Shown: positions 2,544-13,751 of the stretch, piece after piece
Numbering within the stretch: the first letter of the stretch is position 1
Layout: the number at the start of each line of letters is the position of its first letter
DNA from: Dyadobacter sediminis
GTDB lineage: Bacteria > Bacteroidota > Bacteroidia > Cytophagales > Spirosomataceae
Direction: 5' to 3'
DNA: 24,000 nt
Assembly: GCF_005860765.1 (NCBI RefSeq)
Contig: NZ_VCEI01000011.1
Location: 1,193,819-1,217,818 of the forward strand
Notes under the pieces: generated by a model
What the model saw: only the letters and a program-made list of their open reading frames with translations
Databases searched by the model: none
Told to the model about the DNA's origin: nothing
Made by a program: the position numbers and the translations under genes

Positions 2544-4109
2544 TTATTCCCAAAGTACATTCTGCTTAAGAAGCGGATTGTTATCAAGCTCCGTTTGCGG
2601 GATCGGGTACAAATAATTTTTCTCGGTAGCATTGGTTTTACCTACTTTCTGCAGACTTTTCAGTAAAATTCCTTTACCGTCTGCGTCTTTCTCACGAATG
2701 AGGTCAAACCATCGCTGGTATTCGTATACGAGTTCCAGCCTTCTTTCAAAATAAACCGAATCACGAAACTGGTTTTTTGTTAATCCCGCCGTCAGGTTCG
2801 GGAGACCGGCTCTGGCCCGCACTCGGTTAATTGATTTATAGGCTTTTACAGTCGGGCCGTTTACTTCATTTTCAGCTTCGGCGTGGATCAGGAGCAGTTC
2901 CGCATAACGGATGATCGGCACGTTGGCTTCGGAGTTCGAAGTTACAGCCGTGTTGTTCGGGTCCCACCATTTGTTCCAGAACGGCGTCGAATCATTTGGC
3001 ACAGCGGGATTGACAAGCGGCAATGCATATTTTTTTCCATTGGCCGGACTGGTAAAACTTCTTACAAAAGTCACATCCCTGCGCTTGTCTGCAGGTTTGA
3101 AAAGTTTGTAAATACTGAAAAACTTATCTTCTCCTTCCGTGTAGTAACGAACCATATGCGCATAGTTTCCGGTCAGTCCGGGAATGGCGGAGAAAATCGC
3201 ACGGGACATTTCATTATTTCCCTGATTATAGGAATTCGCTTTCATCTGAGCAGAAAATATATGCTCCGTGCCATTTTTGAAAGCCGGCAGAAAAACTTTT
3301 GCATAATCCGCTGCCAGATCATAACCGTAAGCTCCCGTTCCGCCGTCGGACGGCGACAAGGCTTCTTCCGCTTTGGAAATGGCCTTTTGGTAATTTTCCG
3401 TCAGCTTCAAAGGAAGCGATGCCTTGATCAGATATACTTTTGCCAGCAGCGCTCTGGCAGCTCCGGAAGTTGCTCTTCCCAAATCGGGCGAACTGTAAGA
3501 GGTTGGCAAAACGGATGCAGCTTCAGTTAAATCTTTCTCAATCTGCGCATAAACGTCAGCGGACGGACTTTTTGCAATGGCATAATCAGACGGTGAAACA
3601 AAATTCTGATATTCTGTAACCAGCGGCACATCGCCGTAAAGCCGTACAAGGTTGAAGTAAAACAATGCTCTCAGAAATTTGGCTTCGCCCAGAATCCTTT
3701 CCTTGTTGCCCGGAATACTGAAACTGATTGCCGGAATTTTGTTTAAAACCACATTGGCCTTGCGGATAGCGGCATAATGCTGCTGCCAGATTTCATAAAC
3801 TCGCAGATTACTGGAAGAATGCGACTGCACCGCCAGCGACCTTACGTCCGGATTGGTTGCGCCCGGTCCCGGATCTTCGTCATCGCTGCCCATGTTCATG
3901 CCCGTGTTGAACAAGGTATTGTAAGGTGTCTGGATCCTTCCGGAATTCAGGAAAAAGTACACGGCATTAATCGCAGTATTGGCATCGGATTCTGTTTTGT
4001 AATACTGTTCTTCGGTTATTACCGAAGCAGGTTCTTCGGTCAGGAAGTCTTTGCAGGAGGCAATGAAAAGCGTGCTGAGTGCGAGAACGAGGTAAGAATA
4101 TTTTTTCAT
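2544..4109 (-). CDS. SusD/RagB-family nutrient-binding outer-membrane lipoprotein
   Basis: The ORF track gives 2544..4121. The likelier start is the second Met at 4109, giving MKKYSYLVLALSTLFIASC with a lipoprotein Cys. It sits 12-24 nt downstream of the SusC stop. Length and the TPR-like helical N-terminal half (LRALFYFNLVRLYGDVPL) are typical of SusD homologs. Confidence 0.9.
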   Translation of the reverse strand: MKKYSYLVLALSTLFIASCKDFLTEEPASVITEEQYYKTESDANTAINAVYFFLNSGRIQTPYNTLFNTGMNMGSDDEDPGPGATNPDVRSLAVQSHSSSNLRVYEIWQQHYAAIRKANVVLNKIPAISFSIPGNKERILGEAKFLRALFYFNLVRLYGDVPLVTEYQNFVSPSDYAIAKSPSADVYAQIEKDLTEAASVLPTSYSSPDLGRATSGAARALLAKVYLIKASLPLKLTENYQKAISKAEEALSPSDGGTGAYGYDLAADYAKVFLPAFKNGTEHIFSAQMKANSYNQGNNEMSRAIFSAIPGLTGNYAHMVRYYTEGEDKFFSIYKLFKPADKRRDVTFVRSFTSPANGKKYALPLVNPAVPNDSTPFWNKWWDPNNTAVTSNSEANVPIIRYAELLLIHAEAENEVNGPTVKAYKSINRVRARAGLPNLTAGLTKNQFRDSVYFERRLELVYEYQRWFDLIREKDADGKGILLKSLQKVGKTNATEKNYLYPIPQTELDNNPLLKQNVLWE

Positions 4110-4133
4110 TTCAGGAATCAATTTGAATGACTA

Positions 4134-7100
4134 TCAGAATGTCAGCGATAAACCGACCTGATAAGATTTGTTGTTCGGGTACACACTGTCGTCCACTCCT
4201 TTGTTGATCAGGCTTTGTCCGTTGGAACTCACTTCCGGATCAAAACCTGTGTATTTGGTCCAGGTAATGGCATTCTGGGCAGACACATAAATCCGCAGCG
4301 ACTGAATGCGCACTTGCGAGAGCAATGCTTTCGGCAATGAATAACCAAAGGAAATGTTTTTCAGCCTGTAATACGTGGCATCTTCAATGAAGCGGTCCGA
4401 AATGGTGATCGCAGGGTCCTGATATGCTTCTTTCACGTCCGTATCGGTGTTTGTCGGGGAATAACGGTTCAGGAGTGCACGCGACGCATTGGTGTAACCC
4501 GTTCCCAGTTCAAGGTTTGCACGGTTTACATTGTACAGTTTGCCGCCGACGGAAGTCTGGAAGAAAACGGCCAGGTCAAATCCCTTGTAATTGAACGTAT
4601 TGGTTAGTCCGGCAGTAAATCTGATCTGGTTGTCTATTACTTCCCTGTCGCCGGCCTGCGTGATTTTGCCGTCCCCGTCCAGATCTTTAAACTGCTGTCC
4701 GCCCGGTCCTTTGTTGGCCTGCGGCGTGAGTGCCGTTTCACCATCCTGAATCACACCGTCCGTTTTATACACGATGAATGAACCCAGCGGATGGCCGACT
4801 TTCGCGATGGATGGTGCCGAACTGGAAGGAATATACTGATTGACGCCTTCTCCAAGGTCCAGGATTTTGTTTGTATTGCGGGCAAAAATGAAGATCGAAT
4901 TCCACTTCAGATCGCCCGTAAGGTTCTGGGAATTAACGGCCAGTTCAAAACCTTTGTTCGAAACTGCGCCTACATTCTGGTAAATCGTGGAACCTTGCCC
5001 GGAATAGAAATCGGATAATCCTGATGTTCCCGGTACCGTTCTCGTAAGCAGCAGATCCGTGGTCTTTTTGTAGTAATAATCAGCAGTAATGTTCAGGCGG
5101 TCTTTGTACAGACCGATGTCCAGACCGGCATCCACCTGAAAAGTCTTTTCCCATCCCAGATTTTTGTTGGATACCGTACTCGGCGCATAGCCCGAAACCG
5201 TACTCGATGAAAAATTATACGGATAATAAGTCAGCTGCGCAAGCGATTGATACGGCGGAATGCTCTGGTTTCCGGTCGATCCGGCGCTCAACCGCAGTTT
5301 CAGCAGGCTTACTTTCGTAATATTTTTAAAAAATGGCTCATTGGCAATATTCCAGCCCAATGCTGCGGAAGGAAAATAACCCCATTTGTTTCCGGCTCCG
5401 AATTTGGAAGAACCGTCTGCACGAAGCGTGAACGTCACCAGATAACGGTCATCAAAAACGTAATTGATACGGCCCAGATAAGATGCCAGCGCAAAGTCGG
5501 TCGAAGATGAGCCGGGAGTTCTGTTGGTGATTCCTGTTCCAAGATTATTGTAACCAAAAGCATCGGATGAAAATCCTGCTGCCTCGGCAATGGCCCCTTT
5601 TGATTGTGACTGCTGGGCAGTAAAACCGATTACGGCATTAATCCTGTTTTTATCATTCAGCTCTTTATCGTAGCTCAATGTATTTTCATTCAGCCAGTTG
5701 GCAGTAAAAATGGAACCCACCAGCGCATTTCCGTTCAGGGCCGTGCCTTCGTAAGTCGAAATCGGCAAATAGCGGTTCTGCTTGTTATCCACGACATCCG
5801 CACCCACCAGCACTTTGGCTTTGAGGCCTTCTATTATGGTATATTCAGCCGAAATATTTCCTAAAAAACGATTGGTAATGGTTTGGTTCAGCTGATTGTA
5901 AAGCGAATTGATCGGATTTGCGTAAACGGTTTCAAACGGGCTGAACCTGACAAATTTACCGTCTTCCTGATAAATGGGCAGCGATGGCGGCGTAAGAACC
6001 AGCGCGGAAACGACCGATGCGGGAGCCACGTTGGCTTTGGTATGGCTCCCGGTGATGCTGGACGTGAACCTTAATTTATCATTGTAACTGTGATCAATGT
6101 TGAAGCGGGCCGAAAGCCTGTTAAAGTCGGTATTCTGAAGAACGCCATTCTGTTTCAGGTAATTGGCCGAAATCCCGAGCCTTGTCTTGTCCGAACCGGA
6201 AAGAATGGAAATGCTGTGACTTTGCTGCGTTGCTTTTCTGAAGGCTGCTGCCTGCCAGTCGGTCCCCGCTCCCGTTGTATCCAGCGTGAACCCGATTACA
6301 CCGGGCAGAACCGGCGTCTTACCCGAGTTAACGGCTGCATCTTTGCGGAGCTGCCACCATTCGCCTGCATTCATCAAGGGCAAAGTCCGGATCACTTCCT
6401 GCCTTCCGAAATAAGATTCATAAGTAATCGAGGATTTGTTTTTGGAACCGCCTTTTGTCGTGATAATCACAACGCCGTTGGCTCCTCTTGACCCGTAAAT
6501 TGCTGTTGCCGAAGCATCTTTCAACACATCAATGGATTCAATATCAGCCGTATTCAGGAAGGAAAGCGGATTGATTTTGGAACCGGCCGTTACACCCGCA
6601 TCACTCACACCATATTCATTATTGATCGGAAAACCGTCGATTACATACAACGGATCGCTTCCTGCAGTGATGGAATTGCTCCCTCTGATCTGGACGCTCA
6701 CGCCACCGCCCGGCTGCCCGGAGGTCTGCGTCACGGTTGCTCCCGCAATAGAGCCCTGCAGTAACCTTTCTACGGAAACAACAGGCTGCGATTTGATTTC
6801 AATGGGAACGGAAGAAACGGAGCCGGTAATGTCTTTTCTCTTTTGCTCGCCATAACCGATCACCACCACTTCATTCAGCAAATTAGCCGTTTTCAGGACC
6901 ACTTCAACAGGCTCGGCAGCCAGTTCGTAAATTTCAATTTCCTGCTGCTGGAAACCGGTGATATTGATCTGCAGAGTAAACGGAAACTCTTTGGAAGCCG
7001 CAATGCTGAATTTTCCGTCCAGGTCGGTGACGGTGTTTTTGGACATGCCTTTTTCAATGATGGTAGCGCCGGGCAAGCCCATTCCGGTTTCATCCTTTAC

Positions 7101-8832: not shown

Positions 8833-9894
8833 TCAATCCGGTTTCTGCCCGTTTTCAGCCTGTATTTCATTGGGTATGCCAATTTCATAAAACTTCATTG
8901 CTTCCGAAAGCTGTTCTGCAATGCGCTTGATCAGGATTCTTGGCGCCAAGATCCGGATTTTTGAACCAAAGCCTAAAAGCTCCCGTTCGAGCTCATAATT
9001 GTGAATTACCTGAATACTGAAAACAATGCCTTCTTCATCATTGCTGACGATTTTCTGTGTGGCATGCAGCGGTTTAGTAATTACATACGGCGCATCTTTA
9101 TGATTCATCCAGAAAACCACTTTCATATCCCGCTGGCCAGGCGATTTGGTAACGCCCAGAACGTCCGCATAATAATTGGAAAGATCGAGCGTCTGGTTTT
9201 CACGGTAAATTTCACAACGGTCATTTTCAAGTGTTTGAAACCTGTCCAGCGCCAGTGTCAGCAACGGCGCATGCCGCTGATGCGATTGCCCGAGTACAAA
9301 CCAGCGGTTCCTGTATTCTTTTAAAAGATACGGACTGAAACAAAAAGTGGCCGGCTGCCTGGCTTTAAAAGATTGATATGTAATACAGAGAACCGTTTTC
9401 GAAATGATGGCTTTTCGAATCCCTTCAATGAATTCCAATCCTTTGAGGTGATCATTTTTTTCGAAGTCAACAACGGGCAGACTTTGGGTTCTCTGCGCAT
9501 AAATCCGGTCTTCCAGCTTGCTGACCATTTCCGACAAGTCCGTAAAATGGCTGAACCCTTTAAACTGTTTCAACAAGCCCGAAACCTCGCCGAGCACTTT
9601 CAGGTCTTCATGGCTGAGCGGAATGTTGGTAATGCTGTAATGCCTGTCGGAGTACGTATAATATTTTTTATCCACGACAACAATCGGTGCTTCGTAACCG
9701 AGCTTGTCACTCCGCATCATTTCAATATCCGCCTGAACAGAACGCCTGCTTACGCCTTTGTCAATCCCCTCAAACTCGTAAAGTGCAGCGGAACATGCTT
9801 CAATCAGATCATCCAGCGTCCATTTGCGAAAACGGTTCTGCAGACAATTGTCAATTGTACGGTAACGAATCAGTGCGTTGCGGTTTACTGGCAT
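8833..9894 (-). CDS. HTH + WYL-domain transcriptional regulator (YafY/PafBC/BrxR/CapW-like architecture)
   Basis: 353-aa ORF. N-terminal winged-HTH-like region: NALIRYRTIDNCL...VSRRSVQADIEMMR. Central WYL-type region: LCITYQSFKARQPATFCFSPYLLKEYRNRWFVLG. C-terminal extension: VFSIQVIHNYELERELLGFGSKIRILAPRIL. Assignment is by recalled family pattern, not by a search. Confidence 0.8.
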   Translation of the reverse strand: MPVNRNALIRYRTIDNCLQNRFRKWTLDDLIEACSAALYEFEGIDKGVSRRSVQADIEMMRSDKLGYEAPIVVVDKKYYTYSDRHYSITNIPLSHEDLKVLGEVSGLLKQFKGFSHFTDLSEMVSKLEDRIYAQRTQSLPVVDFEKNDHLKGLEFIEGIRKAIISKTVLCITYQSFKARQPATFCFSPYLLKEYRNRWFVLGQSHQRHAPLLTLALDRFQTLENDRCEIYRENQTLDLSNYYADVLGVTKSPGQRDMKVVFWMNHKDAPYVITKPLHATQKIVSNDEEGIVFSIQVIHNYELERELLGFGSKIRILAPRILIKRIAEQLSEAMKFYEIGIPNEIQAENGQKPD

Positions 9895-9951: not shown

Positions 9952-10016
9952 TCGGGTTGTTGGTTTGCATTGTCAGAGAGAAAATGTACACAACAAATAA
10001 ACGAAAGGAGGTTACT

Positions 10017-11591
10017 ATGAAATTCAATTCCCAGAAAAGCAGCACGCGGCAGACCGAAAATCACGAAGGTGCAAAAGCATTTGTAATGAATCCTGAAATG
10101 CAGCTTTATACAGCCGTAGTAACCTGGTCGCTGAATGATACCTTTTATGAAAAAAACGACGAACGGCTTAACCGCGTTCGAACGCTGATTACTACATGCG
10201 ACCCATTGTTTGTGGCCAGACTTGCCGTATATGCCCGTCATAAAATGTACATGCGCTCTGCTCCGCTTGTACTGCTGACCGAACTGGCCCGGATTCACTC
10301 CGGCGATAACCTGATTGCCCGAACCACTGAAAAAGTAATTGCCCGCGCTGATGAAATTACGGAACTGCTCGCCTGTTATCAGCTCCTGAACGAACGTACA
10401 GGTCTGAAAAAGCTGAACCGATTGTCCAAGCAGTTACAAAAAGGACTGTCGGCTGCATTCAACCGTTTTGACGAATACCAGTTTTCGAAATACAACCGCA
10501 GTGGAGAGGTCAAACTTCGCGATGCATTGTTTCTCGTCCATCCGAAAGCCAAAGATGAAGCGCAGCAAATGCTTTTTAATAAAATGGCAGAAAACAGGCT
10601 TGAAACTGCTTATACGTGGGAAACGGAACTTTCAGCTTTGGGCCAAAACGATTTTGAAAATGAGTTTGCCCGCGCCGAAGCTTTCAAAAGCAAATGGGAA
10701 GAACTGATCGATAGTAACAAAGTCGGCTATATGGCTATGCTGCGCAATCTGCGGAATATTCTTCAGGCCGGCGTTTCGTACGGGCATTTGCAAAAGGTTT
10801 GTGAAATCATTTCATCAGCTGAAAAAGTGGCCAAAGCAAAGCAGTTTCCTTTTCGGTATCTGGCTGCCTACCGTGAATTACAAACAGGAATTCAGGTAAC
10901 GGCACCACACTTTTCGGAAAAGATCAGAAGTCTTTTGTTTGGCAATGCGGGTTATACCGGTGATTTGCTGGAAGCACTTGAAAAAGCCGCTGCGCACAGC
11001 GCAGCTTCCATGGCCGGCTTTGACCAGCATACAAGGGTTCTGCTTGCGTGTGATGTTTCGGGTTCCATGCAGATGCCGGTTTCGCCCAAATCTAAAATCC
11101 AGCTTTTCGACATCGGGCTGATGCTTGCCATGCTGCTGCGGTCACGAAGTAAAAATGTAGTTGTCGGGATGTTTGGTGACAAATGGAAAACCATTACTGT
11201 TCCTAAAAATAACATTCTGGCCAATGTGCAGGAATTTTACAAACGTACGGGTGAAGTCGGGTACGCGACGAACGGTTATCTGGTAATAAAGGATTTGCTG
11301 GAAAGAAAAGTAATCATGGATAAAGTAATGCTGTTTACCGACTGCCAGCTCTGGAACAGCAGCGGCAGCCCGGAACATATCCATGCGCTCTGGATCCGGT
11401 ATAAACGAGAAATTGCGCCTGATGCAAAATTGTACCTTTTCGATTTGAGGGGTTATGGCCAGTCGCCTTTGCAGCTTGTACAGCATGACGTGTACTTGCT
11501 TGCCGGATGGAGCGACAAAATTTTTGACATCCTGAATGCGCTTGAAAAGGGCCGTACGGCTTTGCAGGAAATCAATTCCATCATGCTTTGA
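10017..11591 (+). CDS. rsr: Ro60-related protein Rsr (TROVE domain + C-terminal vWA domain)
   Basis: The track ORF is 9957..11591. The probable start is Met21 at 10017 (MKFNSQKS...), preceded by AGGAGG at 10006-10011. N-terminal TROVE-type sequence: TENHEGAKAFVMNPEMQLYTAVVTWSLNDTFYE...FVARLAVYARHKMYMRSAP. vWA MIDAS motif DxSxS in VLLACDVSGSM. Confidence 0.9.
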   Translation: MKFNSQKSSTRQTENHEGAKAFVMNPEMQLYTAVVTWSLNDTFYEKNDERLNRVRTLITTCDPLFVARLAVYARHKMYMRSAPLVLLTELARIHSGDNLIARTTEKVIARADEITELLACYQLLNERTGLKKLNRLSKQLQKGLSAAFNRFDEYQFSKYNRSGEVKLRDALFLVHPKAKDEAQQMLFNKMAENRLETAYTWETELSALGQNDFENEFARAEAFKSKWEELIDSNKVGYMAMLRNLRNILQAGVSYGHLQKVCEIISSAEKVAKAKQFPFRYLAAYRELQTGIQVTAPHFSEKIRSLLFGNAGYTGDLLEALEKAAAHSAASMAGFDQHTRVLLACDVSGSMQMPVSPKSKIQLFDIGLMLAMLLRSRSKNVVVGMFGDKWKTITVPKNNILANVQEFYKRTGEVGYATNGYLVIKDLLERKVIMDKVMLFTDCQLWNSSGSPEHIHALWIRYKREIAPDAKLYLFDLRGYGQSPLQLVQHDVYLLAGWSDKIFDILNALEKGRTALQEINSIML

Positions 11592-11713
11592 AATGCTGAA
11601 ACCTAACAAATACGCATGCGTTCCATTTGAAAATATTTAAAAATGACATTTGGCCAACTATTAAAATATCTGACAGCTAAGAGCTAACGATCAAAAGCTG
11701 ATCAACAATCATT

Positions 11714-11833
11714 AAGGATGCCGTAGAAACAGGATACTTCGCTGCACTTACGGGGCGGGCATTATGGTGAAAGCCAGGATGGAGGTTCGAGTCCTCAAAG
11801 CGGTTCCCCGGCCTGTTTTGCCTGTCGCTCCTT
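11714..11833 (+). ncRNA. Y-RNA-like module A (long bulged terminal stem plus T-arm-containing top domain)
   Basis: Terminal stem: AAGGA (11714-18) pairs with TCCTT (11829-33), and AAACAGG (11727-33) pairs with CCTGTTT (11812-18), with a partly paired internal region. Motif ATACTTCG follows the inner helix directly. An internal stem pairs CGGGG (11751-55) with CCCCG (11806-10). T-arm GAGG-TTCGAGT-CCTC at 11782-11796. The 5' motif TGCCGTA and the stem layout are shared with modules B and C. Boundaries are approximate. Confidence 0.6.
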
Positions 11834-11840
11834 AAAAAAA

Positions 11841-11985
11841 AAAGGTGTCGTAAATGCGTGTTACTTCGATCTGTCACATCCCGGGTCGCCGGTTCGAGTC
11901 CGGCTCTGCTGTGCAAGCAGCAGATAGCTCAGTTGGTAGAGCAGGGCACCGCAAGGTGCATGTCACGCATTGTTTTTTACCCTTT
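11841..11985 (+). ncRNA. yrlA: YrlA-type Y RNA with a circularly permuted tRNA-like domain (module B)
   Basis: Order on the plus strand:
- T-arm GCCGG-TTCGAGT-CCGGC (11888-11904).
- Acceptor-like 7-bp hairpin TCTGCTG / CAGCAGA closed by a loop (11905-11924).
- TA at the U8/A9 positions.
- D-arm GCTC-AGTTGGTA-GAGC (11927-11942) with A14, G18, G19 and A21 equivalents.
- A GGG/CCC anticodon-stem remnant (11944-46 with 11880-82).
- Hairpin GCACC-GCAA-GGTGC (11946-11959).
Terminal stem: AATGCGTG (11853-60) pairs with CACGCATT (11964-71), and AAAGG (11841-45) pairs with CCTTT (11981-85). A U-rich 3' tail follows. It lies about 250 nt downstream of the rsr stop on the same strand. Confidence 0.85.
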
Positions 11986-11995
11986 TTGTTATTTG

Positions 11996-12089
11996 AAAGA
12001 TGTCGTACGAATGTGTTACTTCTTCTGGTAGAAACCGTGCAGACGGTCAGGTTCGAATCCTGTTTCACACATCCGGTTTGTTACTCTTT
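11996..12089 (+). ncRNA. Y-RNA-like module C (terminal stem plus non-permuted mini-tRNA-like top)
   Basis: Its 5' end AAAGATGTCGTACGAATGTGTTACTTC parallels module B's AAAGGTGTCGTAAATGCGTGTTACTTC. Stems: AAAGA (11996-12000) pairs with TCTTT (12085-89), and ATGTGT (12011-16) pairs with ACACAT (12067-72). The top domain has TTCT-GGT-AGAA (12023-33), CCGT-GCAG-ACGG (12035-46) and T-arm CAGG-TTCGAAT-CCTG (12048-62). Confidence 0.6.
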
Positions 12090-12160
12090 CAATTTAAATC
12101 GATTCGGTGCAGAGGCTGGATTAGTGTTTCCGGATGTTTGAAAATTGTTATACGATGCTA

Positions 12161-12210
12161 TTTATTGTCATGTATGGTTGTTTGTAGTCATTTGTAGTTA
12201 TGTATGGTCA
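12161..12210. repeat. Five helically phased 10-bp T/G-rich decamers
   Basis: The run reads TTTATTGTCA | TGTATGGTTG | TTTGTAGTCA | TTTGTAGTTA | TGTATGGTCA, starting at 12161, 12171, 12181, 12191 and 12201. TGTATGGT and TTTGTAGT each occur twice in an A-B-B-A order with exact 10-bp register. Confidence 0.5.
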
Positions 12211-12512
12211 TATCATACATTTTTGATTTTGAGTATTCATAATGGCGGTTTCCGGTTTTTCTGAATATCTGGCTGAATTGACAAAGTTCTGGAAGGAACG
12301 TTTTTCTGTTTAGTACATCATCCTGTGCTATGGCAGACAGTACTGAAAACCCGGCCCTTTTGTTTATACGCTCGCCGTTCGGAAATTTTCCAGTTTTATA
12401 AAAGCAATTTTCAGACTGAACGCATGAACCGGAATGGTGTTTTAATAAGTTAAACGGGTTTAGCTTCCTTGCCAAACTGCGCAATTTATTCCCGAAATCC
12501 CAAAAACACCCC

Positions 12513-13751
12513 ATGGATATATTGACTATTATTACATCTCTGATCATAACCAGTGCGGCATTTTCCTACCTCAACCAGCGTTTTCTCAGACTTCCGGGAA
12601 CCATCGGCGTAATGACGATTTCCATTGTGGTTTCGCTCTTTATCATACTGATCGGCAAGACAGGATTTGAAAATTCCGGACTGATCAAAACGCTGACCTA
12701 TAACATTGATTTTTCCAAAGTGCTGCTGGATGTCATGCTGGGATTTTTGCTGTTTGCCATGGCCATGCATTTTGACTATCAGGATCTTAAAAAGCTGAGA
12801 GCACCGGTGATATTGCTAAGTACCATTGGTGTTATTGTTTCCGCCGGTGTATTTGGCGGACTTTTCCATCTGGCAACCGTCCTCTTGAAAGTGGAAGTGC
12901 CGCTGATCTATTCATTTGTTTTCGGCGCACTGATTTCACCCACAGACCCGATCGCCGTTGCTTCCATTTTGAAGCAGTCCAGGATTCCTGCCCGGCTGGA
13001 AACCATTATTTCAGGTGAATCCATGTTCAATGACGCTGTGGGGCTTATCCTGTTTGTCACTTTGCTCAGCATTGCCGATCAGTCGCAGGAAAGTTTGTCG
13101 CTCATGCAATCACTGGTACTTTTTTCAGAGGAAGTCATCGGCGGTATCGTAATCGGTCTGATGGCAGGTTATGCGGGTTACCGGCTCATGAAATCAATCA
13201 GCGATTTTCAGACAATTTTTCTGATTTCAGTTGCACTTGTCTTAGGGCTTTCCGTTATAGCCGGACGTTTTCATGCCTCGGTTCCATTGTCTGCAGTTAC
13301 CGCGGGACTGATTATAGGCAATAACCGCTTCGGAAGGTCGCATCCTGCCGAAGAATCCCTGAGCATGGTGTGGAAGTTGCTGGATGAAGTTCTGAATACG
13401 ATTCTGTTTGTCATGATCGGTTTGCAGCTGATCATGCTTCCGTTTTTTAGCAATTACCTGCTCATTGGCTGTGTTTCGGTCGTTATCGTTCTTTTTGCCA
13501 GAATGATCAGCATTTCTATTCCTTCTATATTCATACTGCGCAGAATGAACCCGAGCAACCTTGCTATATTGACCTGGGCCGGACTGCGCGGCGGCATATC
13601 CGTTGCCATGGCGCTGCTGCTTCCGGCTTCTCCATACCGGGAAGCAATTCTGTCATGCTGTTATTTCATTGTGATCTTTTCAGTCATTGTCCAGGGCCTT
13701 ACCCTGAACCGTGTTGTAAACAAATTTGCAGACGACAAGGATCTGTTGTAA
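12513..13751 (+). CDS. Cation:proton antiporter (CPA1 / NhaP-type Na+/H+ exchanger)
   Basis: 412-aa polytopic membrane ORF. Na+/H+ exchanger family patterns: FGALISPTDPIAV, GESMFNDAVGLILF and TWAGLRGGISVAMAL. Confidence 0.88.
   Translation: MDILTIITSLIITSAAFSYLNQRFLRLPGTIGVMTISIVVSLFIILIGKTGFENSGLIKTLTYNIDFSKVLLDVMLGFLLFAMAMHFDYQDLKKLRAPVILLSTIGVIVSAGVFGGLFHLATVLLKVEVPLIYSFVFGALISPTDPIAVASILKQSRIPARLETIISGESMFNDAVGLILFVTLLSIADQSQESLSLMQSLVLFSEEVIGGIVIGLMAGYAGYRLMKSISDFQTIFLISVALVLGLSVIAGRFHASVPLSAVTAGLIIGNNRFGRSHPAEESLSMVWKLLDEVLNTILFVMIGLQLIMLPFFSNYLLIGCVSVVIVLFARMISISIPSIFILRRMNPSNLAILTWAGLRGGISVAMALLLPASPYREAILSCCYFIVIFSVIVQGLTLNRVVNKFADDKDLL

What the first reader, a model, noticed from the sequence alone, without database searches (positions are those of the whole stretch)
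11714..12089. Three paralogous RNA modules share a long bulged terminal stem supported by compensatory base changes
Each module begins AA(A/G)G(A/G)-T-G(C/T)CGTA and ends in a pyrimidine-rich strand that pairs back to it. The shared layout, from the ends inward, is:
- A 5-bp outer helix.
- A conserved single bulged U.
- Two base pairs.
- A C.C or C.U mismatch.
- Two wobble or mismatch positions.
- An A-U pair.
- A 3-nt bulge on the 3' strand (UGC, GUU, GUU in A, B, C).
- A 6-8 bp inner helix.
- The motif (A/U)UACUUC immediately after the inner helix.

Covariation seen between modules:
- Outer helix: AAGGA/TCCTT (A), AAAGG/CCTTT (B), AAAGA/TCTTT (C).
- Middle pair: C-G in A versus U-A in B and C.
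- Inner helix: GCGTG/CACGC in B versus ATGTG/CACAT in C, two double changes.

A long terminal stem with conserved bulges is where Ro60 binds eukaryotic and Deinococcus Y RNAs. All three are therefore plausible Rsr ligands. Three tandem Y RNAs is more than the two in Salmonella.
Basis: seen in the sequence. Interest (0 to 1): 0.7.

Follow-up and report, generated by a model that had tools for sequence, protein, structure and literature searches.

The report
Three tandem Y RNAs beside rsr
Just downstream of a bacterial Ro60 (rsr) gene lie three small structured RNA genes that share one conserved, bulged closing stem; they are almost certainly Y RNAs, the RNA partners of Ro60, so this is a well-supported new example of a known system rather than a new kind of thing.

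Summary

They start 122 nt after a TROVE/Ro60-vWA gene (rsr, 9957-11591, +). The same module occurs 1-11 times downstream of rsr in 63 Bacteroidota genomes. Over 135 stems, 95.6% of cells pair and there are 661 double-change cells against 197 in shuffles. The "wobble" positions and the A-U pair do not covary; they are a conserved internal loop.

- Module B is a YrlA-type tRNA mimic: T arm, closed 7-bp acceptor-like stem, UA, D arm.
- Modules A and C share the docking stem and a T arm but lack the D arm.

GYCGUA is the local form of the published GNCGAA Ro60 motif, and UACUUC extends the published YUAY/UA-kink motif. Both recur in an actinophage YrlA.

Best reading: three Y RNAs, probably co-transcribed with rsr and processed. 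Each would dock on Rsr through the stem and present a different tRNA-like head. Rsr binding and expression are inferred, not shown. This is a new member of a known kind. Three is unexceptional for the phylum.

The parts
8833..9894 (-). WYL/WCX-domain transcription regulator, divergent from rsr
   Evidence: Pfam WYL and WCX; PADLOC WYL models. A homolog lies on the opposite strand upstream of rsr in 36 of 63 genome loci and is present in 30 of 120 metagenome loci. That it regulates this locus is inference.
9957..11591 (+). rsr, the Ro60 ortholog (544 aa)
   Evidence: Pfam TROVE 94.8 bits and vWA_Ro60 35.4 bits, both above cut-off. Closest solved structure is the Thermus phage Ro60, 9KOP, E 1.5e-26. 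92% identical to Dyadobacter flavalbus Rsr.
11714..11833 (+). Module A (120 nt): Y RNA with docking stem and a T-arm head, no D arm
   Evidence: 5' strand 11714-11740: outer helix 11714-18, bulged U 11719, GC 11720-21, CGUA 11722-25, inner helix 11726-33, AUACUUC 11734-40. T arm 11782-11796. 3' strand 11812-11833. R1 38.9 bits, E 2e-8. 19-member ortholog cluster. RNAalifold on a structure-blind alignment recovers the outer helix, inner helix, a GGGG/CCCC helix and the T arm, with double changes.
11841..11985 (+). Module B (145 nt): YrlA-type Y RNA with a permuted tRNA-like head
   Evidence: 5' strand 11841-11867. T arm 11888-11904. Closed 7-bp acceptor-like stem-loop 11905-11924. UA 11925-26. 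D arm 11927-11942. Extra hairpin 11947-11958. 3' strand 11964-11985. Rfam YrlA 42.4 bits, E 6e-8, model positions 23-88. In the 26-sequence alignment, 24 of 31 pairs show double changes. MFE z-score -3.64 (folded as 11842-11977, a slightly truncated range).
11996..12089 (+). Module C (94 nt): short Y RNA with docking stem, conserved GG, a hairpin and a T arm
   Evidence: 5' strand 11996-12022. GG 12027-28. Hairpin 12034-12047. T arm 12048-12062. 3' strand 12068-12089. R1 41.9 bits, E 3e-9. In the 17-member ortholog alignment, 11 of 20 pairs show double changes, and inner-helix pairs show 1-9 double changes each.
11592..11713 (+). rsr-to-array spacer (122 nt), with no terminator-like site
   Evidence: The scan found no terminator-like site and no + strand sigma-70-like promoter in 11400-12600. 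Bacteroidota promoters are not covered by that scan. The result is compatible with read-through from rsr but does not prove it.

Best explanation
The region encodes three paralogous bacterial Y RNAs that belong to the adjacent rsr (Ro60) gene.

Proposed mechanism:
- Transcription: the array is probably transcribed with rsr, or just after it, as one precursor. It would then be cut in the 7-10 nt spacers into RNAs of about 120, 145 and 94 nt.
- Docking: in each RNA the 5' and 3' ends pair into the same module. This is a 5-bp helix, a bulged U, G-C and Y-R pairs, a conserved internal loop (5' CGUA against 3' GNYUKUU), an 8-bp helix, and the single-stranded UACUUC.
- Rsr contact: the Rsr ring would recognise mainly the conserved 5'-strand and loop nucleotides, as Ro60 does with GGUCCGA/GNCGAA in other Y RNAs.
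- Heads: the apical parts differ. B is a complete YrlA-type tRNA mimic. A and C are reduced tRNA-like heads built around a T arm.
- Function: the heads would gate the Rsr cavity and tether Rsr to tRNA-shape-recognising partners such as PNPase. Three Y RNAs would give Rsr three alternative adaptors.

Shown here: the shared stem, its covariation, the YrlA architecture of B, and the genomic linkage to rsr.
Inferred: Rsr binding, co-transcription and processing, and the effector partners.
For: - Rsr identity and adjacency on the same strand.
- Motif specificity: 238 motif hits on the rsr strand and none on the opposite strand in 578 kb, against 0.07 expected. 223 of them lie within 2 kb downstream of rsr.
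- Tight tandem spacing: inter-module spacers are mostly 3-25 nt.
- Stem covariation.
- YrlA core hit for B, and the T arm / closed stem / UA / D arm consensus.
- Model R1 links A and C to B and finds exactly three modules in the window.
- R1 gives 303 hits across 63 rsr loci.
- Reciprocal test: 84 of 120 motif-selected metagenome loci carry rsr on the same strand.
- GYCGUA sits where Ignavibacteria have GCCGAAAG. Streptomyces phage BRock YrlAs have UGCGUAG...AUACUUC and UGCGAAG...UUACUUC.
- Published knowledge: Y RNAs lie within a few kb of rsr on the same strand. They carry GNCGAAN0-1G near the 5' end and a conserved YUAY. M. smegmatis YrlA and YrlB are processed from one precursor, and its YrlB also has a possible T arm (PMC4201824). 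The Ro60 site lies in the stem formed by the 5' and 3' ends, and the conserved UA forms a kink (bioRxiv 10.1101/312249).
Against: - There are no expression, end-mapping or binding data.
- Rfam YrlA does not reach its gathering score: 42.4 against 69 for B, and no hit for A or C. The same shortfall is seen for phage YrlA-like RNAs.
- The motif differs from the published one at one position (GNCGUA rather than GNCGAA).
- A and C do not fold better than shuffled sequence.
- No promoter or terminator was identified.
- A few arrays appear without rsr nearby, for example L229.
- No PNPase or rtcB gene is in the window.
Confidence: 0.8

Rival explanations
1. One unprocessed multi-domain RNA. The three modules stay joined, possibly as the 3' UTR of the rsr mRNA, and act as a scaffold that loads up to three Rsr rings. 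Alternatively they stabilise or autoregulate the rsr transcript.
For: Spacers are very short, 7-10 nt here and mostly 3-25 nt in relatives. No terminator or promoter was found between rsr and the array or between modules. Arrays are always on the rsr strand.
Against: Each module closes on itself with its own covarying stem. This is the arrangement of independently released Y RNAs. M. smegmatis YrlA and YrlB are cut from one precursor (PMC4201824). In some loci modules lie upstream of rsr or more than 2 kb away, so a 3' UTR role cannot be general.
Confidence: 0.12
2. tRNA-derived remnants or tRNA-like decoys that work without Rsr. Examples would be substrates or decoys for tRNA-modifying, tRNA-cleaving or RNA-repair enzymes, or ligands sensed by the neighbouring WYL regulator.
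For: All three heads carry a canonical T loop, GGUUCGA(A/G)UCC. B has T and D arms. Genuine tRNAs sit inside or between related modules in phage csAssE-Sib and in L055. The WYL regulator is conserved next to rsr. A few arrays lack rsr nearby.
Against: ARAGORN finds no tRNA in the window. The most conserved part of all modules is not the tRNA-like head but the terminal stem, loop and UACUUC. That region corresponds to the published Ro60-binding region. The association with rsr is very strong in both directions.
Confidence: 0.06
3. Not functional RNA: a repeat or mobile element, short protein-coding ORFs on either strand, or chance similarity.
For: Mechanical ORFs overlap the region: 11677-11916 (-), 11854-12141 (+), 11874-12068 (-) and 12000-12197 (+).
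Against: Compensatory changes across 135 stems. Ortholog lengths differ by amounts that are not multiples of three. There are 238 hits on one strand and none on the other. The module types are conserved as distinct ortholog clusters across genera. The motif count is far above chance.
Confidence: 0.02

Closest known systems
YrlA (Rfam RF02553; Chen et al. 2014, PMC4201824; structure in Wang et al. 2018, bioRxiv 10.1101/312249)
   Same: - Encoded next to rsr on the same strand.
- The 5' and 3' ends form a long bulged stem carrying a GNCG(A/U)A motif.
- A conserved YUAY/UA follows the second helix.
- The head is a permuted tRNA: T arm, closed acceptor-like stem, UA, D arm (module B).
   Different: - The score is below the Rfam gathering cut-off, and only the tRNA-like core aligns.
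- The motif is GYCGUA, not GNCGAA.
- UACUUC is invariant and longer than YUAY.
- B has an extra hairpin (11947-11958) between the D arm and the stem.
- Modules A and C lack the D arm and the closed acceptor stem, so they are not YrlA.
Second Y RNAs of characterised bacteria: S. Typhimurium YrlB, M. smegmatis YrlB, D. radiodurans Yrn2
   Same: They are additional Rsr-bound RNAs encoded beside YrlA/Yrn1 and share the 5' recognition motif. M. smegmatis YrlB has a possible T arm and is processed from a common precursor with YrlA (PMC4201824). Modules A and C fit this role.
   Different: [quoted passage not shown] A and C instead have multi-helix heads (hairpin plus T arm). Here there are two such extra RNAs, and up to ten in relatives.
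Metazoan Y RNAs and D. radiodurans Yrn1
   Same: A terminal stem made from the 5' and 3' ends carries a conserved bulged Ro60 site. Ro60 reads mainly the 5' strand. The apical module recruits effectors.
   Different: There is no sequence similarity to GGUCCGA beyond G..CG.A. No Rfam Y_RNA hit was found. These would be bacterial operon-linked transcripts rather than Pol III genes.
Tandem (dimeric) tRNA genes
   Same: A T arm followed by a D arm gives YrlA-like partial matches. The minus-strand partial R1 hits (model 20-119) in L060, L062 and L063 look like this false-positive type (inferred), a class also noted by Chen 2014.
   Different: ARAGORN finds no tRNA in the window. The window modules match the full model including the terminal stem.
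Ro60-linked units of crAss-like phage csAssE-Sib (OR575929.1)
   Same: Three units lie just upstream of the phage Ro60 gene. They have the same stem layout (5 bp, bulged U, 2 bp, loop, 8-10 bp helix, WUACUUC) and give R1 hits of 74.7, 32.6 and 24.6 bits.
   Different: The loop motif is UGGUGA, not UGYCGUA. Units 2 and 3 enclose ordinary-order tRNA-Tyr and tRNA-Lys that begin right after UACUUC.

Membership tests
Bacterial Y RNA (Rsr ligand, broad sense) | Encoded within a few kb of rsr on the same strand | tested here: met
   Modules start 122 nt after rsr on the + strand. This holds in 223 of 238 motif hits across 63 loci and in 84 of 120 motif-selected metagenome loci.
Bacterial Y RNA (Rsr ligand, broad sense) | 5' and 3' ends pair into a long stem that holds the Ro60 site | tested here: met
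   Outer helix, 2 bp and inner helix are supported by covariation: 661 double-change cells against 197 in shuffles. Structure-blind alignments agree.
Bacterial Y RNA (Rsr ligand, broad sense) | Conserved 5'-strand motif GNCGAAN0-1G | tested here: inconclusive
   The window has GCCGUAG, GUCGUAA and GUCGUAC, which is GNCGUA (5 of 6 fixed positions). This variant is present in all 238 regex-defined hits (the search pattern required GYCGTA). At the same position an Ignavibacteria module has the canonical GCCGAAAG, Chitinophaga has GUCGUU, and a Streptomyces phage has both CGUAG and CGAAG. It is homologous in position but not identical as written.
Bacterial Y RNA (Rsr ligand, broad sense) | Bound by Rsr and dependent on Rsr for accumulation | not testable with these tools
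   Needs RIP, EMSA or Northern blots in a delta-rsr strain.
YrlA (RF02553) | Score at or above the Rfam gathering cut-off (69 bits) | tested here: not met
   No hit at gathering level in the window or in 15 related loci. B scores 42.4 bits over model positions 23-88. A Streptomyces phage and a crAss-like phage also score only 28-33 bits, so the cut-off is strict outside the seed clades.
YrlA (RF02553) | tRNA-like head in the order T arm, closed acceptor-like stem-loop, UA, D arm | tested here: met
   Met for module B only. T arm 11888-11904, acceptor-like stem 11905-11924, UA 11925-26, D arm 11927-11942. Covariation is seen in 26 orthologs. Not met for A and C, which have a T arm only.
YrlA (RF02553) | Conserved YUAY (UA kink) after the stem helix | tested here: met
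   UUAC in B and C, AUAC in A. U22 and A23 were required by the search pattern, so their constancy across the stems is by construction. Independently, UACUUC is retained in modules found by R1 without the regex (Chitinophaga, Ignavibacteria, phages). The motif is described in PMC4201824 and bioRxiv 10.1101/312249.
tRNA | Cloverleaf with open acceptor stem and anticodon loop, detectable by ARAGORN or Rfam tRNA | tested here: not met
   ARAGORN finds no genes in the window. There is no Rfam tRNA hit.

The most novel reading that the evidence does not exclude
Bacteroidota, and some of their phages, may use Rsr with a whole cassette array of Y RNAs. In this reading one invariant docking stem (GYCGUA loop plus UACUUC) carries interchangeable tRNA-derived heads. 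The heads seen here are full YrlA mimics, reduced T-arm heads, plain hairpins and, in a crAss-like phage, complete tRNAs that begin right after UACUUC. Arrays reach 11 members, and the locus often has a conserved WYL regulator. That would make Ro60 a multi-adaptor platform. It would also suggest that Y RNAs arise by capture of tRNA genes between the two arms of the stem. Apart from the YrlA-type members, I found no description of this organisation in the literature I could search.
Probability: 0.3. Interest if true: 0.65.

Novelty: new member of a known kind. Interest (0 to 1): 0.42.

Why it matters
Ro60 and its Y RNAs form a conserved RNA quality-control system. It has been studied in only three bacteria, each with two Y RNAs.

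This locus adds a cleanly defined three-member set from a different phylum. The comparative data give a sharp, testable definition of the Rsr-docking module: which nucleotides are invariant and which only need to pair.

If the different heads recruit different partners, these arrays offer a natural experiment on how one Ro60 ring is re-targeted.

Practically, two of the three module classes (A and C) have no Rfam model. The third (B) falls below the YrlA cut-off. Such loci are therefore left unannotated at present.

Tried and rejected
- Rfam at gathering thresholds found nothing in the window. In 15 related loci it found only tRNA and Flavo-1.
- ARAGORN found no tRNA or tmRNA in the window.
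- The sigma-70 promoter and intrinsic terminator scan found nothing useful. Bacteroidota promoters are not covered by it.
- Single-sequence MFE for A and C is no better than shuffles. My first fold of B used a slightly truncated range.
- NCBIfam's Rsr equivalog model scores only 29.6 against a cut-off of 900, and PADLOC has no hit for Rsr. The Rsr call rests on Pfam.
- The viral-contig scan with a 14-base motif was dominated by chance matches. Perfect-stem rate was 4 of 124, the same as the control. Only L099, L134 and L153 look real.
- crAss001 gives only a weak partial R1 hit, 18.4 bits, downstream of its TROVE gene.
- An alternative mapping, in which UACUUC corresponds to the AUGCU of the Rfam consensus, was suggested by the cmscan alignment. 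I rejected it in favour of GYCGUA = GNCGAA and UUAC = YUAY, based on the Ignavibacteria and Streptomyces-phage variants and the published motif order.
- The three Wolin-lab reviews (PMC6047535, PMC10870794, PMC6542706) and the supplementary tables of Chen 2014 are not held. I could not check whether Bacteroidetes arrays are already tabulated there.
- Coding, repeat-element and chance explanations were rejected.

Full report
WHAT IS THERE

The finding covers 11714-12089 on the + strand. Reading the sequence shows three units: 11714-11833 (A), 11841-11985 (B) and 11996-12089 (C). Each begins with five purine-rich bases, then U, G(C/U), CGUA, eight variable bases and (A/U)UACUUC. Each ends in a pyrimidine-rich strand complementary to its own 5' strand.

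The pattern TGYCGTA-N8-WTACTTC occurs three times exactly. With up to two mismatches there are four matches in the window, against 0.25 expected from shuffles.

Directly upstream, on the same strand, is a 544-aa ORF (9957-11591) with Pfam TROVE and Ro60-vWA domains. This is an rsr/Ro60 ortholog. Divergent from it is a WYL/WCX regulator (8833-9894, -). The rest of the 24 kb encodes unrelated functions:
- a SusC/SusD pair and a sulfatase;
- a fatty-acid hydroxylase;
- a Na/H exchanger and a hydrolase;
- a cytochrome c protein, a permease, a phosphorylase and a BLUF sensor.

There is no rtcB or PNPase gene in the window. The Rsr protein is 92% identical to that of Dyadobacter flavalbus.

IS THE SHARED STEM REAL?

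Three paralogs alone are weak evidence, so I fetched 63 rsr loci from Bacteroidota genomes.

The 5' motif (GYCGTA, 7-10 nt, TACTTC) occurs 238 times on the rsr strand and never on the other strand in 578 kb. About 0.07 hits are expected by chance. Of the 238 hits, 223 lie within 2 kb downstream of rsr. Gaps between consecutive modules are mostly 3-25 nt.

For each 5' strand I searched downstream for a complementary 3' strand. Of 239 modules, 167 have a perfect 13-of-13 match. With shuffled helices the figure is 17 of 717.

- Cells paired: 95.6%, against 69.9% in shuffles and 41-63% when the 3' partner is slid.
- Double-change cells: 661 against 197.
- Covariation score: 0.773 against 0.245. 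No shuffle in 500 reached the observed value.

Two inner-helix pairs (13-37 and 14-36) were not used to locate the 3' strand. They show 54 and 42 double changes, with only 5 and 8 unpaired cells.

Alignments made without any structural information (MAFFT plus RNAalifold) of the orthologs of C (17 sequences), A (19) and B (26) independently recover the outer helix, the two-pair step and the inner helix.

G10.U43 is essentially invariant. U11 opposite K42 is unpaired in 53 of 135 stems. A12-U41 pairs in 115 of 135 without any covariation. These positions form a conserved asymmetric internal loop (5' CGUA against 3' GNYUKUU), not demonstrated pairs.

WHAT THE THREE MODULES ARE

Clustering of 218 modules by blastn puts B in a 74-member group, A in a 19-member group and C in a 17-member group.

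Module B:
- Its core matches Rfam YrlA at 42.4 bits (E 6e-8) over model positions 23-88, the tRNA-like part. This is below the gathering score of 69.
- The B-group consensus is the terminal stem, a T arm (GCSGGUUCGANUCCSGC), a closed 7-bp stem with heavy covariation, UA, and a D arm (GCUCAG..GGUAGAGC).
- This is the published YrlA architecture (PMC4201824).

Module C:
- After UACUUC it has a conserved GG, a covarying hairpin and a T arm.

Module A:
- It has a GGGG/CCCC helix enclosing a hairpin and a T arm.
- Neither A nor C has a D arm or a closed acceptor-like stem.

A covariance model built only from B-type modules (R1) finds exactly three hits in the window, all on the + strand and over the full model length: B at 122.5 bits, C at 41.9 (E 3e-9) and A at 38.9 (E 2e-8). 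A and C are therefore homologous to B through the shared stem.

RELATION TO KNOWN Y RNA FEATURES

Chen et al. 2014 describe two conserved motifs: GNCGAAN0-1G near the 5' end, thought to be the Rsr recognition site, and YUAY. Wang et al. 2018 show that the conserved UA forms a kink, and that the Ro60 site lies in the stem made by the 5' and 3' ends. The Rfam YrlA consensus reads acGGCGAAUGCUuggGgaaCUAcgcc.

The window modules have GYCGUA, then an 8-bp helix, then (U/A)UACUUC. This is the same two motifs in the same order.

That GYCGUA is the homolog of GNCGAA is supported by modules found with R1:
- an Ignavibacteria module has GCCGAAAG at that exact position;
- Chitinophaga modules have GUCGUU.

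Two YrlA-like RNAs upstream of the Ro60 gene of Streptomyces phage BRock match R1 at 80 and 60 bits. They read UGCGUAG...AUACUUC and UGCGAAG...UUACUUC. Both motifs are therefore family-wide features, not a Bacteroidota peculiarity.

LINKAGE TO RSR

R1 gives 303 hits at E <= 1e-3 in the 63 loci. Nearly all are full-length, on the rsr strand and downstream of rsr. The few minus-strand partial hits (model positions 20-119) look like tandem tRNA genes (inferred), a false-positive type already noted by Chen 2014.

Copy number ranges from 1 to 11. Mucilaginibacter pedocola (L063) has eleven modules between 5746 and 7451.

As a reciprocal test I scanned metagenome contigs with an RNA-only pattern. 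Of 120 loci, 84 contain an rsr homolog, always on the module strand. Most of the rest are contigs that end close to the array. At least one (L229) is a four-module array with no rsr within about 4 kb on either side.

HOW IT MOST LIKELY WORKS

The shown parts are the stem, its covariation, the tRNA-like heads and the genomic linkage.

From established knowledge of Ro60 and Y RNA complexes I infer three things:
- Each module is released as a separate RNA.
- It docks on Rsr through the conserved 5'-strand and loop nucleotides.
- It presents a head that gates the Rsr cavity or tethers a partner. In D. radiodurans and Salmonella that partner is PNPase.

Two observations make co-transcription with rsr followed by processing the simplest model: the short spacers, and the absence of a detectable terminator between rsr and the array. 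The M. smegmatis Y RNAs are processed this way.

I put 0.8 on this overall reading. The main alternative (0.12) is that the array works unprocessed, as a multi-Rsr scaffold or as an rsr 3' UTR element. Rsr-independent tRNA-mimic roles (0.06) and non-RNA explanations (0.02) are unlikely.

NOVELTY

Y RNAs next to rsr are known, including tRNA-like YrlA plus a second Y RNA. YrlA-like sequences were reported in more than 250 species of at least 10 phyla, and B-type modules would have been detectable by that search.

The window is therefore a new member of a known kind. Three copies is ordinary for its phylum.

I could not find the following described in the searchable literature:
- the non-YrlA head classes that share the docking stem;
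- arrays of up to eleven modules;
- the conserved WYL neighbour.

The relevant reviews and supplementary tables were not available, so I rate the chance that this is really new at about 0.3.

Noticed in passing
L184 2513-2928 (phage csAssE-Sib OR575929.1, upstream of its Ro60 gene at 3016-4650): Three units have the same stem layout and the WUACUUC motif, with R1 hits of 74.7, 24.6 and 32.6 bits. Unit 1 is YrlA-like. Units 2 and 3 enclose ARAGORN-called tRNA-Tyr (2681-2753) and tRNA-Lys (2826-2899), which begin immediately after UACUUC. The loop motif is UGGUGA instead of UGYCGUA.
   Followed up: partly
window 8833-9894 (-), and L-loci upstream of rsr: A WYL/WCX-domain regulator lies divergent from rsr. 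It is conserved in that position in 36 of 63 genome loci and present in 30 of 120 metagenome loci. It may play the role that RtcR plays for the Salmonella rsr operon.
   Followed up: partly
L063 5746-7451 (Mucilaginibacter pedocola): Eleven tandem modules lie downstream of rsr. Several other loci (L006, L009, L010, L038, L046, L055, L060) have 7-8.
   Followed up: yes
L055 6287-6358 (+): An Rfam tRNA hit (45.7 bits) sits between two modules of the array (6210-6277 and 6380-6510), on the same strand.
   Followed up: no
L229 4368-4960 (metagenome contig Ga0189286_100646): A four-module array has no rsr homolog within about 4.3 kb upstream or 3.4 kb downstream. The next ORF is a subtilase-like protease. 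Orphan arrays therefore exist.
   Followed up: partly
L185 2501-2639 and 2855-2982 (Streptomyces phage BRock): Two YrlA-like RNAs lie between a tRNA cluster and the phage Ro60 gene. They match the Bacteroidota-derived model over its full length (80 and 60 bits), including CGUAG/CGAAG and UACUUC, but reach only about 32 bits against Rfam YrlA.
   Followed up: partly
L099 2152-2373, L153 115-692, L134 3884-4013 (IMG/VR contigs): Modules occur on contigs classed as viral. L099 and L153 also carry rsr homologs (44% and 54% identity), with the modules upstream of rsr rather than downstream.
   Followed up: partly
L186 4754-5660 (Bacteroides phage crAss001): A 906-nt unannotated gap follows the TROVE gene. 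It contains only a weak partial R1 hit (5104-5258, 18.4 bits), possibly a divergent Y RNA.
   Followed up: no
L063 3065-3131 (-) and 7597-7663 (-): Two Flavo-1 RNA motifs (Rfam RF01705, 45 bits) flank the rsr/Y RNA locus on the opposite strand.
   Followed up: no
window 12140-12215: Just after module C there is an AT-rich stretch with short direct repeats (ATGTATGGT and TTTGTAGT, each twice). It overlaps the end of an unannotated 119-aa ORF (12188-12547, -) that has no family match.
   Followed up: no
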